A stretch of 64,000 bases of DNA from positions 1 to 64,000 of IMG/VR virus record IMGVR_UViG_3300005689_000056. One strand, 5' to 3'. This stretch comes from a virus. The notes beneath the pieces were generated by a model. That model saw only the letters and a program-made list of their open reading frames with translations, did no database searches and had not been told where the DNA came from. A program made the position numbers and the translations under genes. Of the stretch, positions 54,166-61,525 are shown piece after piece. Each line of letters opens with the position of its first letter. Position 1 is the first letter of the stretch.

Positions 54166-54915
54166 ATGGCTGACAGGGAAAATGGAGAGACTGTAGGTCG
54201 TCGCATCTCGCGTCGGCGTTCAGGCTTTGCGTTCTCGGGGGCTTCTGTCTCTGACTCCACGCAGCAGCAAGGCGGCAATATCAATGACGGTGTGGAGAGG
54301 ATGGTCAATACCCCGCCATCGTCTTTACCGCCGCCTGAGCCACCACAGACAATCGCGGGGACGCCGTCTGAGGACTTCAACCCGCAGGGGCGTCTGGCGC
54401 AGGTGCGCCGCCGTTCTACCACCTACGAACGAGAGTACCGGCTGAATCTACTACACCGCCTCATGATGCGTGGGGTACCGCTCGATGAGATAGCAAACCA
54501 GCTTGGTATCTCTGTGTCTCAGGTATATCGTGATCGTGACGAGTTGAAGGAGCGCCATCGCGCATCGTCTCGCAGTCTGGATATCGACGAGATCATCGGA
54601 GACAGCAAGGGGTATTACGAGGAAGCTGGTGCTATGGCTATGCGCGCCGCCTCCAAGAACGACCTACCCTACGCAATGCGTCTTGCGGCTGTACGTACAG
54701 CGTTAGCCGCCAAGAATGACATGCACCGTTTCTTCCAGACAGCAGGTGTCTATGACGTGTTGCGTTTTCGCAAGGCGCAGGACGGTAACGGTACGTCCGA
54801 TGTTCGTCGCCTCATGGAGAATACTGAGCGCCTTCTGTCCGGCGGTCTGGGTGACCTCAGCGGTGCGGTCAACGACGCTATCGATTCTGGCGATCAGGAG
54901 AATCTTGACCTATGA
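54166..54915 (+). CDS. Terminase small subunit (putative)
   Basis: HTH GVPLDEIANQLGISVSQVYRD; ATGA-coupled to terL. Confidence 0.7.
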   Translation: MADRENGETVGRRISRRRSGFAFSGASVSDSTQQQGGNINDGVERMVNTPPSSLPPPEPPQTIAGTPSEDFNPQGRLAQVRRRSTTYEREYRLNLLHRLMMRGVPLDEIANQLGISVSQVYRDRDELKERHRASSRSLDIDEIIGDSKGYYEEAGAMAMRAASKNDLPYAMRLAAVRTALAAKNDMHRFFQTAGVYDVLRFRKAQDGNGTSDVRRLMENTERLLSGGLGDLSGAVNDAIDSGDQENLDL

Positions 54916-57797
54916 CTGCCACACACACCCGCCGCGTAGGGAGACGACGGACCCCGGGTGCCGCGCCGGGGGTTAGCGAGCAGGCTCGCGCCATGGTTCA
55001 AGGGGCGTGGGAGGAGGCTGAACGTTGCGAGAATAAGCTGTTCGGTGAGATGTACGCCACCGCGTTAGAGCGCAAGGTGTATTACAACGATACGGTGCTA
55101 TTCGACTTCATGAAGCACCTCACGCACGCTCCGGTAGGCATAGAAGAGTTTCTGTCGGGGTCGGAGTTTCTGGGGGCTACTGACATATCGTTGTGGCCCG
55201 AAGTACGCGCAGCCATCGTTGATATTAACAAGTACTGGTGGAAAGGTCAGGTAGGAGGGGCCAAGCATGAGGCTCTTCTGATGGGCTCGTGTGTAGACGC
55301 GCTAACCGAGTTTTTAACCCCGAACGGCTGGAAGTATATTTCCGATTTTGAGGAAGGTGATCTTGTCGGTCAATACTCGGTAGACGGTACTCTAGAGTTT
55401 GTGACACCGCAGGCGTACATCCGCCGCCGCCACCGAATGTTTTACCACTTCGCACCTCGGGGCGGTCTGGATATGATGTTAACTCCGGGGCATCGCGTTA
55501 TCTACCGGAACAGGAACACCGGGGAAATCTGCGAGATGTCCGCAGAGGACGTGGCCGAGAACCACAATAGAACTGCTACCGGGTTCACAGGTAAGTTCCT
55601 ATCTACCTTTACCCCTACGGGGCGGGTAGGGATTGATCTATCCGACGAACAGATCCGTGTGATGGTTATGGTTCATGCCGATGGCTCCTTTGATACAAGG
55701 GATGACTCCAGTTGGTGTAATGTGATCGTAAAAAAGCCGCGGAAAATTCGCAGGGCTAGGCGTATCCTTCAGGAGGCGGGTATTGCGTTTACTGAAGTAC
55801 CGCACAACGGAGACTACCGCCGCATCCGTTTTTACGCGCCGCAACGGAACAAGACATACGAGGGTTGGTGGGGTTGCACACAGGACCAGCTCCGTATTGT
55901 TACCGACGAGGTAATGCACTGGGATGGCTCCGCGAGGCACCAACAGTTCTACACTGCGAAGAAAGAGGAAGCTGATTTCATCCAGTACGCCTATCTCGCT
56001 ACAGGGGTACGGGCTACCATGCAGTGGCAAGATCGCGGGGGAAATCGGTCTGTCGAGTATAGGGTGAAGCGTTGTCGTTCCGCTGAATACACCATGTCCG
56101 CTTCGCCTAAAGGGCCTGAAGCACAGCTTGTTGAAGCCAGTGATGGGTATTGCTACTGCTTCACACTGCCTACGGGTATGTGGTTGGCGAGGCGCAACGG
56201 TAGTGTATACGTCACCGGGAACACAGGTAGCGGAAAAACGGAAATATCGAAGATTACCCAGCTATACCACCTTTACCTGTTGTCCTGCTTGGACAACCCG
56301 CAAGGCTACTACGGCCTGCCGAAAGCGACCTCTATTGTGTTCGCTATCATGGCCGCTAAGCCGCACGTGACGAAGAAGGTTATCTACGACCCTCTGCGCC
56401 ACATGATTGAGCACATCCCGTATTTTCAGAAGCACCTACGACCGAGCAAGCTGGTTGAGTCCGAGATGATCTTTGAGGAGAAGAACATCCGTGTAGTGCC
56501 TGCGGGTGTGGACGCCGACTCGATCCTAGGTGAAGCAGTACTTTCGGGGATCATTGACGAAATCAACTTCATGAACGTTGTGCTACGTTCTAAGAAGGCA
56601 GAGGTAACCACAGGCCGCGCTGGGGTCTACGATCAGGCCCAGACAATACACAGTGCAATGACCCGCCGTATCAAGGGTCGTTTCACCAAGCCCGGACCCA
56701 AGATAGGGATACTCTGTACGTCATCGTCAACCCGCTATAAAGGGGACTTTACCGACAAGCGTAAGGCTCAGGCTCTGCAGCACGACGAGCAAGGTATCTA
56801 CATCTACGATAGGCCGCAATACGAGGTAAAACCTCAAGAAAATTTCTGTGGGCAAAAGTTTAGGCTGCTTGTCGGTAACGACATGATCAACGATGTGCGT
56901 ATCCTGAAGGACGGGGACGCCGTACCGCCAGAGGCTCGCGTTCTAGACATCCCCATCGAGTATGAGACGGAGTTCCAGAGAGACCCGCATTCCGCCCTAC
57001 GAGACATCTGCGGTATATCCACCTCGGCTATTTCCCCCTTCATTACCCGTCGTTTCAAGATCTACGAGGCTGTGTCTGCCGGGGAGGAGGAAGGTATCCA
57101 GTCGTTCCTCAACAAGGACAACGTTATTCTAGGTGTGGATGGGATGCCGGTCGTGAAGTACAGCCATTACTGTACCGACCCCTCACGTCCGCGCTATGTG
57201 CACGTTGACTTGTCGAAGACCGGGGACAGTTGTGGTATCGCCATGCTGAGATACGATGGCCTCACCTCCGTTACACGCAGTAATGGGGCTATCGAGAAGC
57301 TACCTATCGCTACCATTGAGATGGCGTGCTCAATACAGCCTGACTCCAATAATGAAATAGATTTTGCGGAGGTTCGTACATGGATACGGCAGCTACGTGA
57401 TGTATACGGGTACCCGATCAGGGCGGTAACATACGACGGTATCTTTAGTATCGAGTCCGTACAGCAGTGGCGCAAGATAGGTATGCGCACTGGTAATATT
57501 TCGGTAGACAGAACGTCCGCACCGTACAAAAACCTGCGTGACGCCTATAACGATAACCGCATACGGCAGTACCATCAGGAGGTACTGATCCGCGAGCTTT
57601 TTGATTTGGAGTACGATGACGATAAGGACAAAGTCGATCACCCGGTGAATGGCAGTAAGGATGTGGCGGATGCAGTGGCCGGCGCCTACTACTCGATGCT
57701 GACCAAGCGCAGTACTTGGGTGTCCGAGTCAGGTAACGAGGTAATAGGTAATGGCCGTGCGGAATTTGGTGAACGTTTCGAGGGGAGTAGGCGATGA
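54912..57797 (+). CDS. terL: Terminase large subunit, intein-containing
   Basis: Spliced Walker A GS/TGSGKT, Walker B GIIDE, nuclease HVDLS...D, DHP..GSKDVADAVAG. Confidence 0.9.
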   Translation: MTATHTRRVGRRRTPGAAPGVSEQARAMVQGAWEEAERCENKLFGEMYATALERKVYYNDTVLFDFMKHLTHAPVGIEEFLSGSEFLGATDISLWPEVRAAIVDINKYWWKGQVGGAKHEALLMGSCVDALTEFLTPNGWKYISDFEEGDLVGQYSVDGTLEFVTPQAYIRRRHRMFYHFAPRGGLDMMLTPGHRVIYRNRNTGEICEMSAEDVAENHNRTATGFTGKFLSTFTPTGRVGIDLSDEQIRVMVMVHADGSFDTRDDSSWCNVIVKKPRKIRRARRILQEAGIAFTEVPHNGDYRRIRFYAPQRNKTYEGWWGCTQDQLRIVTDEVMHWDGSARHQQFYTAKKEEADFIQYAYLATGVRATMQWQDRGGNRSVEYRVKRCRSAEYTMSASPKGPEAQLVEASDGYCYCFTLPTGMWLARRNGSVYVTGNTGSGKTEISKITQLYHLYLLSCLDNPQGYYGLPKATSIVFAIMAAKPHVTKKVIYDPLRHMIEHIPYFQKHLRPSKLVESEMIFEEKNIRVVPAGVDADSILGEAVLSGIIDEINFMNVVLRSKKAEVTTGRAGVYDQAQTIHSAMTRRIKGRFTKPGPKIGILCTSSSTRYKGDFTDKRKAQALQHDEQGIYIYDRPQYEVKPQENFCGQKFRLLVGNDMINDVRILKDGDAVPPEARVLDIPIEYETEFQRDPHSALRDICGISTSAISPFITRRFKIYEAVSAGEEEGIQSFLNKDNVILGVDGMPVVKYSHYCTDPSRPRYVHVDLSKTGDSCGIAMLRYDGLTSVTRSNGAIEKLPIATIEMACSIQPDSNNEIDFAEVRTWIRQLRDVYGYPIRAVTYDGIFSIESVQQWRKIGMRTGNISVDRTSAPYKNLRDAYNDNRIRQYHQEVLIRELFDLEYDDDKDKVDHPVNGSKDVADAVAGAYYSMLTKRSTWVSESGNEVIGNGRAEFGERFEGSRR
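55290..56222 (+). mobile_element. Intein (311 aa) with LAGLIDADG-type homing endonuclease
   Basis: Starts CVDALTEFLTPNGWK.I; VHADGS and MHWDGS blocks; ends YCFTLP...VTGN followed by Thr. Confidence 0.92.
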
Positions 57798-59474: not shown

Positions 59475-59503
59475 TTGACAAAGAATCGTAACTGGGTGAT
59501 AAT
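59475..59503 (+). promoter_or_regulatory. Sigma70-type promoter
   Basis: TTGACA-N17-GATAAT; shares TTGACAAAGAA with the 41048 promoter. Confidence 0.6.
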
Positions 59504-60095
59504 CTGCGAACTCTCTGAGTGCCAAGCGCTGTACTGTCTGCAGATCGGTGGCGCTGGACCGGTAGTGCGGCTCTTCTGGGTTGCTGCAGGTAACGTGGGC
59601 GATGTAGATACGCGCACACGCACATCGTAAGTATCCGCTATGTGGATCGGCCACACAGTGCGATTGCGGGTAAAGTACGGTCATAGAGAAACACGAACGA
59701 GGGGGGACTATATGAACGTTGCGGCACGTATGGGCGGACTGGTAATCCGCGTATGCTTGCCGTTCTCCATGGGGGTAGCAGCCGCGCTTGCCGTTTGCGG
59801 GGCCTACGTGAGTACGGCGTACATTGATGTCGGATACAGTACGCCACCGGGCGGTGCGCCCGCCAGAATCTCACGGATTGCGACAACCCCCAGTGTGCCG
59901 AGAAAAGTGCCGAAGGCACCGCATCTGGAGTACGGCTAGATGGTGGGGCTCTGCTACCGACAAAGCCCCCTAAATAGCAGATAGAGACCTGAAGGAAGGG
60001 GCCGTGTGGTTTGCGACCCCACCAAAGAGACCAGCGAATAACGCACGCTGTACGTTATTCGGTGTTTTCTAGGTGTAATAGTGAGAGGAGGTAGC

Positions 60096-60380
60096 ATGGG
60101 TTACTACATCCAAGGGCCATTGTCTGGAAAGGGAGCGCACCTTGTGCGCGAGTACGGTGCCACGGCTTGCAGCGAGAAGGATGCACGGGCTGCGCTCGAT
60201 TCCGAGGACATGGTGCCGGTGTGCGTCGTAGACAACGGTATGTTCGACGCGGCGGCACTGGCCTACGACAAGCAAGAGTTTGATGTGTTTGCCGGTGATA
60301 CTTCTGGTCGCCCGAAGCGGTGGTATATCATGTCTCGGGCGCGGGCTTACGAACTTTCTGGGTACAAGGTGAAGAAATGA
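60096..60380 (+). CDS. Hypothetical protein
   Basis: GAGGAGG RBS. Confidence 0.75.
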   Translation: MGYYIQGPLSGKGAHLVREYGATACSEKDARAALDSEDMVPVCVVDNGMFDAAALAYDKQEFDVFAGDTSGRPKRWYIMSRARAYELSGYKVKK

Positions 60381-60889
60381 AGATCATCGAAGGGCTGAAG
60401 AAGCTCAAAGAACTGAAGATCAAGGCCGACGATCTCGCGGTGCGTATCCGCAATCATTGCGCGGACCTGTCGCACGAAACACCGCGCTACACAGATCAGG
60501 CGGCACAGGTGCAATCATGGATCGACGCACGGCGAGATATCGTGAAAGAGATCCTGCGCCTGCGTATCGCCATCCAGCGCACGAACCTTCTGGTACGCGT
60601 GGTTGTCGAGACAGAGGACGGCGTATCGGTGGAGAAGACCATCGCCGAGTGGATTCACCGCCGCAAGGACTTGGCTGCGATGGAGATGGAGTCGTACGCC
60701 GTGCTTACCGACCGGGGGCTGAAAGAGGGCCACCTGCCGCAGTCGAGCGGCGTACCGCTGGAAGTGAAGATCCGCCGGTATTTCTCGCAGCAGCACCGTG
60801 ATGAGCGGTATTCTGCTCTGAAGGCCGAACCACTCCGCATCGACTCAGCACTGGAGGTTGCTAACGCAATCAATGATCTGGTAGAGTAG
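60377..60889 (+). CDS. Coiled-coil protein, DIP1984-like family (tentative)
   Basis: MKI.E.L...K.L, LR.AIQRTN, TIAEWI.RR..L, ID..LE..N pattern. Confidence 0.6.
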   Translation: MKIIEGLKKLKELKIKADDLAVRIRNHCADLSHETPRYTDQAAQVQSWIDARRDIVKEILRLRIAIQRTNLLVRVVVETEDGVSVEKTIAEWIHRRKDLAAMEMESYAVLTDRGLKEGHLPQSSGVPLEVKIRRYFSQQHRDERYSALKAEPLRIDSALEVANAINDLVE

Positions 60890-60901
60890 TAACCGCTTAA
60901 C

Positions 60902-61184
60902 GTTGCAGCGGACGTGCGGAGACAAAATCGTTAATCAGGCCTAAGCTAAGCCGGGTAAGTGCTAAGCATCTGACTCCTAATCAGACCAAGGCAAGTCCCT
61001 CAATGGGCAACCTCAAGTGTCATGGTTTAAGGCTAAAGGTAGTAAGGTTTAGTCAGATTAAGGCGGTAAGTGTTATGTGCGTAAGGATGACGCCTGTAGG
61101 TTAGGCAAAATCCCTGTACGAAGTTAGGCGCCCTGAGCCTTACGAATCTTCGAGGGCTTCCCGTATGGGTTGCTGCAACCACCA
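60902..61184 (+). ncRNA. Candidate structured ncRNA
   Basis: Closing stem GTTGCAGCGG / TTGCTGCAAC, no credible ORF, nine TAAG units, anticodon-arm-like hairpin, downstream hairpin at 61190-61212. Confidence 0.55.
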
Positions 61185-61219
61185 ACACCGCAGGGGGCGC
61201 AATACCCCCTGCACTTTCA

Positions 61220-61330
61220 CAGTCTATCGGCCAGCTTCGTGCCTGCGCACGGCGCCCGTCCGGCTCCTCCCTCCCCTCACCGGACGAGCGCTGCCTGATA
61301 CCCCCCGGCACGAAGCTGCCCCATAGACTG
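61220..61330. ncRNA. Long imperfect hairpin, candidate sRNA
   Basis: Nested inverted repeats of 8, 12 and 12 bp around a C/T-rich loop. Confidence 0.45.
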
Positions 61331-61525
61331 TCAACCGCATACAGGCGGCACAGCGTATAATCGCAATCGATTTCAACTCTCCAAAAAGGGGGAATATCTG
61401 TGAGATATAGCAATGCGCTTCTTACTAGACATCATTACCGTGATATGCGGCCTGATCGTACTGATTGCACTCGCTTCGGCGTCCCCGGTGTCATCATTTC
61501 TCGGTTGGATGGTTAGCTTGCTGAA

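What the first reader, a model, noticed from the sequence alone, without database searches (positions are those of the whole stretch)
60377..61212. Coiled-coil protein gene followed by a stem-closed ~280-nt RNA with repeated TAAG units: candidate protein-ncRNA system
Seen: 12 nt after the stop, GTTGCAGCGG (60902) can pair with TTGCTGCAAC (61170-61179), extendable by GTGCGG/CCGTAT. Inside are nine TAAG copies within 145 nt (60942, 60947, 60956, 60963, 61028, 61043, 61059, 61067, 61082; under one expected) plus CAAG variants. CCACCA overlaps the stem end, followed by a GC hairpin (61190-61212). No credible ORF. The protein resembles the uncharacterised DIP1984-like helical family. Inference: the short repeats are binding sites for an oligomer of the adjacent protein, forming a ribonucleoprotein or a type III toxin-antitoxin-like pair.
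Basis: partly seen in the sequence, partly recalled or inferred. Interest (0 to 1): 0.75.

Follow-up and report, generated by a model that had tools for sequence, protein, structure and literature searches.

The report
Phage AAG-array RNA with partner protein
Right behind a small helical-protein gene of unknown function, this uncultured phage encodes a real, knotted ~280-base RNA with a row of ten evenly spaced AAG units. The RNA and the gene travel together in every related phage that could be checked, match nothing catalogued, and probably form an undescribed RNA-protein particle.

Summary
Nine TAAG lie in 145 nt against 0.41 expected, and the closing stem exists and covaries.

The element (window 60902-61179) belongs to a large RNA family that is not in Rfam 15. 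Its parts are two closing helices, two long-range helices, a pseudoknot and a variable domain. In about a third of members the variable domain holds a complete tRNA. An unpaired tract carries about ten AAG units with a fixed spacing signature of 7-7-7-8-16-8-7-8 nt.

The RNA lies beside a DUF6847/DIP1984-fold gene on the same strand in 87 of 94 protein-anchored loci. In an RNA-first motif scan, every true RNA (39) had the gene where the flank was long enough to tell. No other neighbouring gene is conserved. A divergent protein subfamily carries a matching divergent RNA with 4+4 AAG units. The protein is predicted to form a symmetric homodimer.

My best reading is a ribonucleoprotein in which a dimer-based oligomer reads the periodic AAG triplets, as TRAP, HutP or Vipr-vrRNA do. 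This is inferred, not shown. A type III toxin-antitoxin reading is not supported.

The papers library held no description of the protein family or of this RNA. This scan has already met the same module in at least eight other genomes, so the finding is recurrent. The function is still unknown.

The parts
59475..59503 (+). Promoter-like site (TTGACA-17-GATAAT, 11 of 12). It is the likely start of the transcription unit that runs through the gene and the RNA.
   Evidence: It is a consensus match only and is not conserved family-wide.
60096..60380 (+). Upstream ORF (94 aa) whose stop overlaps the start of the DUF6847 gene (ATGA). It gives context and is not part of the conserved module.
   Evidence: Searches found no family. 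One search found no conserved neighbouring gene in about 90 loci.
60377..60889 (+). Gene for a 170-aa DUF6847/DIP1984-fold protein with four long helices and two small beta hairpins. It is the partner gene of the RNA.
60902..61179 (+). The whole structured RNA (type 1 AAG-array RNA), from P1 5' strand to P1 3' strand.
   Evidence: nhmmer on the family HMM matches 60900-61181 at E 3e-35. Structure.
60902..60911 (+). P1, 5' strand. It pairs with 61170-61179.
   Evidence: Every tested P1 pair shows compensatory changes.
60914..60919 (+). P2, 5' strand. It pairs with 61161-61166.
60920..60927 (+). Conserved unpaired junction AGACAAAA (family consensus GAGAUAAAAA).
   Evidence: These alignment columns are invariant.
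60928..60940 (+). 5' strands of the long-range helices P3 (UCGU, 60928-60931) and P4 (AGGC, 60937-60940). They pair with ACGA at 61142-61145 and GCCU at 61137-61140.
   Evidence: for family covariation. for coordinates.
60941..61011 (+). Variable domain. In this phage it holds an anticodon-arm-like hairpin (60969-60985). In about a third of relatives a complete tRNA sits at this position.
   Evidence: tRNA scores 48-68 bits in relatives. One search found no tRNA in this window.
61015..61085 (+). Unpaired AAG array of ten 7-8-nt slots. In this window they read CAAG, CAUG, UAAG, AAAG, UAAG, one degenerate slot, UAAG, UAAG, UAUG, UAAG.
   Evidence: One search found no covarying pairs in the tract.
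61107..61125 (+). Conserved core segment AAAAUCCCUG...AAGUU. CCCU at 61112-61115 is the 5' strand of the pseudoknot helix Px.
61137..61145 (+). 3' strands of P4 and P3.
61151..61166 (+). Px 3' strand (AGGG, 61153-61156), the invariant GGCUUCC motif (61155-61161) and the P2 3' strand (61161-61166).
61170..61179 (+). P1, 3' strand.
61190..61212 (+). GC-rich hairpin after the RNA. It is a possible transcript end but has no U-run and is not a family feature.
   Evidence: The terminator scan did not call it.

Best explanation
The window holds one member of an undescribed two-part phage module. One part is a 170-aa DUF6847/DIP1984-fold protein. The other is a ~280-nt RNA transcribed on the same strand next to it.

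The RNA folds into a closed, pseudoknotted core: P1/P2 closing helices, P3/P4 long-range helices, and helix Px crossing P3/P4. The core presents two appendages. One is a variable domain that can carry a whole tRNA. The other is a single-stranded rail of ten AAG units spaced 7-8 nt apart in two blocks.

I infer that protein and RNA assemble into a ribonucleoprotein. In this reading a dimer-based oligomer of the protein grips the periodic AAG triplets, one per protomer. This is the way TRAP and HutP read spaced NAG triplets and the way Vipr protomers line up on GGY repeats. The knotted core would act as the handle.

Shown: the RNA is real and structured; the array is periodic and unpaired; gene and RNA are co-inherited. 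Inferred: that they bind, and that the AAG units are the contact points. The biological role is not known. The recurrent link to phage tRNAs and tRNA arrays suggests translation or tRNA-directed conflict with the host.
For: Structure:
- On 19 sequences, 25 of 33 pairs show changes on both sides. 86.7% of cells are paired against 66% in shuffles and at most 55% with slid partners.
- On 76 non-redundant RNAs, compensatory pairs appear in P1, P2, P3, Px and one hairpin, and none in the AAG tract.
- Frequent G-U pairs fix the strand.

Array:
- AAG-to-AAG spacing over 81 RNAs peaks at 7 nt (204) and 8 nt (153), against about 10-13 in shuffles.
- The same order of spacings, 7-7-7-8-16-8-7-8, recurs in diverged members.
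- AAG columns have near-zero entropy and spacer columns have high entropy.

Linkage:
- 87 of 94 loci found through the protein have the RNA on the same strand. One of the misses, L081, still has a 9-unit AAG chain.
- 8 of 11 independent metagenome loci have the RNA; two more are cut short.
- A motif scan that does not use the protein found 39 true RNAs. Thirty had the gene adjacent. The other nine loci were cut on the gene side. Two of those still show the gene's C-terminus at the cut and five lie on contigs already known to carry the gene.
- The RNA lies 3' of the gene in most loci and 5' in about ten. That argues against a simple UTR role.
- No other neighbouring gene is conserved.
- A protein subfamily only ~28% identical to the window's protein carries a matching variant RNA with a GUAAAAA junction and 4+4 AAG units.
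- RNA type and gene order cluster on the protein tree: 10 changes against 31 in shuffles.

Protein:
- The model is confident (pLDDT 94.7).
- The homo-oligomer test scored ipSAE 0.77 against a best control of 0.00. Runs agreed in at least 82% of contacts and partner pLDDT was at least 86. In the tool's calibration 20 of 30 proteins solved as pairs of one chain and 1 of 23 solved as single chains reached the mark. Four copies and my own alignment were used, so those counts hold only roughly.
- The interface is two-fold symmetric.
Against: - No experiment or RNA-seq was available.
- The complex test covers protein with protein only, and a related crystal structure (3kdq) exists, so the pass may come from memory.
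- Nothing shows that the protein touches RNA. It is near-neutral (pI 7.9; family range 6.3-9.2).
- Its fold neighbours have no known RNA-binding function.
- Obligate linkage would also fit a protein that acts on, or is regulated by, the RNA without reading the AAG units.
- Type 1 has 5+(1)+4 units and type 2 has 4+4, which is awkward for one fixed closed oligomer.
Confidence: 0.55

Rival explanations
1. The RNA works mainly with host components or on its own, as proposed for the phage RNAs GOLLD and ROOL. In this reading the AAG rail binds or sponges a host factor such as ribosome parts, tRNA or an RNA-binding protein. The DUF6847 protein would be a helper (chaperone, stabiliser or processing factor) and not the reader of the repeats.
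For: - Like GOLLD and ROOL, the RNA is phage-encoded and often sits in or next to tRNA arrays. Like GOLLD, it can hold tRNAs inside a variable region (paper 10.1101/2024.12.08.627333).
- AAGG resembles the start of a Shine-Dalgarno sequence. This rests on my own knowledge and was not tested.
Against: - GOLLD and ROOL have no linked protein, whereas this RNA is never seen without the gene.
- RNA subtype tracks protein subfamily. That is expected for direct partners.
Confidence: 0.2
2. The element is a cis-acting untranslated region that controls expression of the adjacent gene, for example by autoregulation when the protein binds its own mRNA.
For: - The RNA is always on the same strand.
- It usually starts 3-40 nt after the stop, or ends 10-20 nt before the start codon.
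- It is probably co-transcribed with the gene.
Against: - It occurs on either side of the gene.
- In several loci it is separated from the gene by 150-1500 nt that hold tRNAs or ORFs.
- It is far larger and more ornate than known autoregulatory sites.
- It can host complete tRNAs.
Confidence: 0.1
3. The RNA is a carrier or processing scaffold for phage tRNAs. The closed core holds the leader and trailer of an embedded tRNA, and the protein helps its maturation or protection.
For: - At least 25 loci have a tRNA at the same slot of the variable domain. Rfam tRNA scores are 48-68 bits and several of the embedded tRNAs are followed directly by CCA.
- Other loci lie in tRNA arrays, and one lies 1 kb from a tmRNA.
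Against: - About two thirds of members, this window included, have no tRNA in the RNA.
- The window's phage has no tRNA gene at all in 99 kb.
- This reading does not explain the AAG array.
Confidence: 0.08
4. The pair is a type III toxin-antitoxin system: the protein is a toxic endoribonuclease and the RNA is its repeat antitoxin.
For: It is a two-part protein-plus-repeat-RNA module with no other conserved neighbour.
Against: - The units are 7-8 nt, not about 36-nt tandem repeats. Apart from the AAG triplets the RNA is one non-repetitive fold.
- The protein has no ToxN/AbiQ/CptN-like fold and no PADLOC match.
- Gene order varies.
- The module was found on uncultured-phage and metagenome (MAG) contigs and not in 72,556 plasmid records.
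Confidence: 0.03

Closest known systems
TRAP on the trp leader and HutP on the hut terminator RNA (Bacillus). This comparison rests on my own knowledge.
   Same: A symmetric homo-oligomer reads NAG triplets set at a regular short spacing on unpaired RNA. HutP reads two blocks of UAG with 4-nt spacers (7-nt period) joined by a linker. That resembles the two AAG blocks here.
   Different: The protein folds are unrelated. Those RNAs are short cis-acting attenuators, not ~280-nt knotted RNAs. Binding is not shown here. The triplet is AAG, with ten slots.
VIPR systems: Vipr protein plus vrRNA (bioRxiv 10.64898/2026.04.26.720920 and 10.64898/2026.04.26.720927)
   Same: Both are phage-encoded minimal protein-plus-RNA modules. 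The RNA has 9-16 periodic units with a fixed triplet and variable letters between, joined to a conserved structured part with a pseudoknot. Vipr protomers line up along the repeats.
   Different: - Vipr has a RAMP/RRM fold, whereas this protein has a helical DIP1984 fold.
- The VIPR unit is YNNGG with a 5-nt period. Here it is AAG plus 4-5 nt.
- vrRNAs are about 100 nt and occur several per locus. Here there is one ~280-nt closed RNA.
- No vap-like second gene is present.
- Spacers here are partly conserved by position.
GOLLD and ROOL RNAs of phages (Rfam; 10.1101/2024.12.08.627333)
   Same: They are ornate phage RNAs of unknown function, often near tRNA islands. GOLLD has a variable region that can hold tRNAs.
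   Different: - Rfam shows no model match.
- This RNA is much smaller.
- GOLLD and ROOL have no partner protein and no periodic triplet array.
DIP1984 family / Pfam DUF6847 (PF20935, NF038048; crystal structure 3kdq)
   Same: The fold is the same (Foldseek E 3e-4, TM 0.56-0.61). 27 of 30 aligned relatives hit PF20935.
   Different: The window's own protein misses the Pfam model and scores below the NCBIfam cut-off. The family has no known function, and searches for its three names found no paper that discusses it.
Bacterial Y RNA (YrlA) with Ro/Rsr. This comparison rests on my own knowledge.
   Same: A closed stem formed by the two RNA ends is combined with a tRNA-like module, and the gene lies next to its protein partner.
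   Different: There is no Rsr-like protein and no Rfam match. The tRNA module is optional. YrlA has no repeat array.

Membership tests
DUF6847 / DIP1984 protein family | Match to Pfam PF20935 or NCBIfam NF038048 above the curated cut-off | tested here: inconclusive
   The window protein has no Pfam hit and scores 27 bits on NF038048 against a cut-off of 70. 27 of 30 aligned relatives at 51-62% identity hit PF20935.
DUF6847 / DIP1984 protein family | Fold of the solved member 3kdq | tested here: met
   The AF2 model has pLDDT 94.7. 3kdq chains A and C are the only PDB matches below E 1e-3, with TM 0.55-0.61.
Type III toxin-antitoxin (ToxIN, AbiQ, CptIN) | Antitoxin RNA made of tandem direct repeats of about 34-36 nt | tested here: not met
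   The units are 7-8 nt and share only AAG. The rest is a single non-repetitive fold.
Type III toxin-antitoxin (ToxIN, AbiQ, CptIN) | Toxin of the ToxN/AbiQ endoribonuclease kind | tested here: not met
   No PADLOC match. The fold is helical and has no such structural neighbour.
VIPR (Vipr plus vrRNA) | RAMP (RRM core, G-loop, thumb) protein | tested here: not met
   The secondary structure is four long helices and two small hairpins. No RAMP or Cas chain appears among the fold matches.
VIPR (Vipr plus vrRNA) | 9-16 YNNGG repeats with a 5-nt period | tested here: not met
   The period is 7-8 nt and the fixed triplet is AAG.
VIPR (Vipr plus vrRNA) | Hypervariable letters between the fixed triplets that specify a target | tested here: inconclusive
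   Spacer columns have high entropy but several are conserved by position. Only two close RNA pairs were available. No near-identical relatives could be fetched.
Any Rfam 15 family, including GOLLD, ROOL, RNase P, tmRNA, Y RNA and RAGATH-27 | Covariance-model match | tested here: not met
   - No match at gathering score in the window or in 20 relatives, except embedded tRNAs.
- Nothing relevant at E up to 10 on three RNAs.
- RF03100 has no match at the module sites in five phage records.
tRNA / tmRNA | ARAGORN or Rfam tRNA/tmRNA call in the element | tested here: not met
   ARAGORN finds none in the window or in the whole 99-kb record. Relatives do carry true tRNAs inside the RNA.
TRAP/HutP-type triplet-repeat recognition (mechanism, not homology) | Regularly spaced NAG triplets on unpaired RNA | tested here: met
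TRAP/HutP-type triplet-repeat recognition (mechanism, not homology) | Homo-oligomeric protein that binds the triplets | not testable with these tools
   Only self-association of the protein could be modelled. RNA binding needs an experiment.

The most novel reading that the evidence does not exclude
A protein family unrelated to Vipr or Cas has independently evolved a filament-on-repeat guide RNA. DUF6847 protomers would lock each AAG and expose the 4-5 variable letters between them as a noncontiguous code. That code would recognise a nucleic-acid target in a competing element or the host, or a set of tRNA anticodon loops. The knotted core would be the handle and the tRNA slot a cargo or decoy.
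Probability: 0.1. Interest if true: 0.95.

Novelty: categorically new. Interest (0 to 1): 0.8.

Why it matters
This would add a widespread phage RNA-protein machine built on a principle so far known from only a few systems: a fixed triplet repeated at a set pitch on a structured RNA. The protein family forms 842 clusters at 50% identity. Its contigs carry labels from many bacterial phyla.

The module is absent from 50,697 sequenced phage isolates. That may explain why it has escaped notice.

It gives a domain of unknown function (DUF6847/DIP1984, with a crystal structure since 2009) its first concrete and testable partner. It also links a new RNA class to the open question of why phages place ornate RNAs among their tRNAs.

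Tried and rejected
Readings tested and dropped:
- tmRNA or tRNA-like end. This was prompted by CCACCA after the stem. ARAGORN finds nothing and CCACCA is not conserved.
- RNase P-like core. From memory I noticed that GAAUGUCCUG and AGGCUUCC resemble CR-I and CR-V, and that the pseudoknot topology is similar. No RNase P model matches at E up to 10, and the equivalents of the universal G-U are not conserved. I dropped it.
It has no match at the module sites.
- The period-7 and period-8 arrays of bioRxiv 10.64898/2026.10.21.760802. Those have a reverse-complement copy and no protein partner, so they are a different thing.
- Watson-Crick pairing within or between the two AAG blocks. No covarying columns were found.

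Searches that found nothing:
- Defence-system models found nothing.
- Cultured relatives: tblastn against GenBank phages and PLSDB plasmids found nothing.
- Papers naming DIP1984, PF20935 or DUF6847: none discusses the family. DIP1984 is named once in one unrelated Acinetobacter surveillance paper.

Tools that did not run:
I used nhmmer and my own pair counts instead.
- The metagenome scan returned no near-identical relative, so spacer hypervariability could not be tested.

Full report
**Source and setting.** The window is the first 64 kb of a 99,461-bp IMG/VR virus record that CheckV rates as complete. The ORFs listed for 57-64 kb and the GC skew fit a + strand gene layout. The finding lies in a unit that probably starts at a strong promoter-like site at 59475-59503. 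The unit runs through a non-conserved 94-aa ORF (60096-60380), the 170-aa gene (60377-60889) and the RNA.

**Check of the observation.**
- Every stated feature is present at its coordinates.
- Nine TAAG in 145 nt compare with 0.41 expected (P = 6e-10). This is the only such cluster in the window.
- The closing stem is the base of the minimum-free-energy fold.

**The protein.**
- Pfam and PHROGs give nothing for the window's protein. NCBIfam gives a sub-threshold DIP1984_fam hit.
- There are 964 homologues at 90% clustering, many marked PF20935, and 842 clusters at 50% identity.
- The AlphaFold model is confident (pLDDT 94.7). It has four long helices and two small hairpins.
- Its only significant PDB neighbour is 3kdq, the C. 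diphtheriae protein of unknown function. Viral and Atlas neighbours are uncharacterised.
- No PADLOC model matches.
- tblastn finds no relative in 50,697 GenBank phage records or 72,556 plasmids. The subfamily is so far known only from uncultured phages and some metagenome-assembled genomes. Its hits include contigs labelled Dehalococcoidales, WOR-3, Bryobacteraceae, Verrucomicrobiota, Pirellulaceae, Hyphomicrobium and others.

**The RNA is a family.**
- The regions next to the gene in relatives share a GAGAYAAAA junction near the 5' end and an invariant GGCUUCC about 250-340 nt later.
- An alignment of 19 members and RNAalifold give P1, P2 and a third helix Px, all with many compensatory changes.
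- With the long-range helices P3 and P4 added, 25 of 33 pairs change on both sides. Pairing is 86.7% against 66% in shuffles and at most 55% when partners are slid.
- Px starts inside the region enclosed by P3/P4 and ends outside it, so the core is a pseudoknot.
- On 76 non-redundant RNAs the same helices stand out, and no pair is found in the repeat tract.
- Frequent G-U pairs fix the strand.
- Rfam 15 has no match in the window, in 20 relatives (apart from tRNAs) or at E up to 10 on three RNAs.

**The repeat tract.**
- The conserved unit is AAG, not TAAG (logo K-Y-A-A-G-G-n-U).
- Over 81 RNAs the distance from one AAG to the next peaks sharply at 7 and 8 nt, with harmonics at 14-16 and 22-23 nt. 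Shuffles are flat.
- Diverged members keep the same order of spacings, 7-7-7-8-16-8-7-8. That is ten slots in two blocks with one degenerate slot between.
- AAG columns have almost no entropy and most spacer columns have high entropy.
- In the window the tract is 61015-61085. The four TAAG at 60942-60963 belong to the variable domain.

**The tRNA slot.**
- In at least 25 loci ARAGORN finds a tRNA inside the RNA, always in the variable domain between P4 and the array and on the same strand. Anticodons are very diverse and none reads lysine codons.
- The five embedded tRNAs in the 20 loci scanned with Rfam score 48-68 bits.
- Other loci sit in tRNA arrays, and one has a tmRNA 1 kb upstream.
- The window's RNA has only an anticodon-arm-like hairpin (60969-60985) at that place. 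The whole phage has no tRNA gene.
- GOLLD and ROOL share the association with tRNA islands.

**Linkage.**
- An nhmmer profile of the RNA hits 87 of 94 protein-anchored loci on the gene's strand. Among 86 non-redundant loci the RNA is downstream in 71. In 39 of those the hit begins within 60 nt of the stop; some later starts are partial hits. It is directly upstream in ten.
- One of the misses still has a nine-unit AAG chain.
- The reverse test used a motif of the RNA's 3' core only. Of 90 matching stretches in IMG/VR, 39 were true RNAs and 51 were chance matches with neither RNA nor gene.
- Of the 39 true RNAs, 30 had the gene adjacent on the same strand. The other nine loci were cut on the gene side. 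Two of them show the gene's C-terminus at the cut and five lie on contigs already known to carry the gene.
- Eight of eleven independent metagenome contigs also have the RNA; two more are cut short.
- No other gene is conserved nearby.
- A protein subfamily about 28% identical to the window's protein, mostly on 120-230-kb contigs, carries a variant RNA of the same plan. It has a GUAAAAA junction, 4+4 AAG units split by a hairpin and an AAAAAUCCAGA...UCUGGCUG core.
- RNA type and gene order cluster on the protein tree (10 changes against 31 in shuffles). Kin share labels, so this shows co-inheritance and not more.

**Mechanism.**
- Reciprocal linkage with variable order and distance, subtype matching and a precisely pitched unpaired triplet array point to a particle in which the protein reads the array.
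- The protein-protein model supports a two-fold symmetric homodimer (ipSAE 0.77, best control 0.00). The caveats printed by the tool apply, and a related solved structure exists.
- Conserved polar residues outside the predicted interface are K2, K8, T69, N70, R96, E160 and N163. From the helix order they would lie at one pole of the bundle. I propose this pole as the triplet pocket. This is inference only.
- The closest working analogues are TRAP and HutP (my own knowledge) and the recently reported Vipr-vrRNA filaments. Membership in each was tested and not met.

**Rivals.** They are listed with odds in the Rival explanations section. The type III toxin-antitoxin idea fails its defining features.

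**Earlier notes.** This scan had already flagged and followed up the same module in at least eight other genomes. I took two leads from those notes, VIPR and RAGATH-27, and tested both here.

**What remains unknown.** Expression, RNA ends, binding, stoichiometry and function are all untested.

Noticed in passing
window 59504-60095: About 590 nt with no convincing ORF lie between a near-consensus promoter-like site (59475-59503) and the first gene of the unit. Another first-stage note (e1-5963938) calls this a candidate large structured RNA. I did not test it.
   Followed up: no
window 61216-61334: A 28-nt inverted repeat (89% complementary, arms 61216-61243 and 61307-61334, 63 nt apart) encloses a GC-rich stretch directly after the RNA's trailing hairpin. 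Its role is unknown.
   Followed up: partly
window 54912-57797: A 961-aa ORF upstream has no Pfam hit. From its layout it may be a large terminase interrupted by an intein-like insert, but I did not test this.
   Followed up: no
L045 3094-5126, L052 3244-4186, L072 3081-3391, L194 152-4487: In several relatives the module sits inside long phage tRNA arrays (up to 17 tRNAs within 2 kb in L045). L071 has a tmRNA (1806-2161) about 1 kb upstream of the gene.
   Followed up: partly
L014, L018, L023, L062, L092 (embedded tRNAs): Several embedded tRNAs have anticodons that begin with A (AAT, ACT, ATT, AGG). Some have 6-nt or odd anticodon loops, and one would read UAA. The slot may tolerate or favour unusual tRNAs.
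   Followed up: partly
L016, L031, L032, L043 (3' end of the RNA): In many relatives the P1 3' strand runs straight into a U-run. The closing helix itself may therefore act as the transcription terminator. The window lacks this and has a separate GC hairpin.
   Followed up: no
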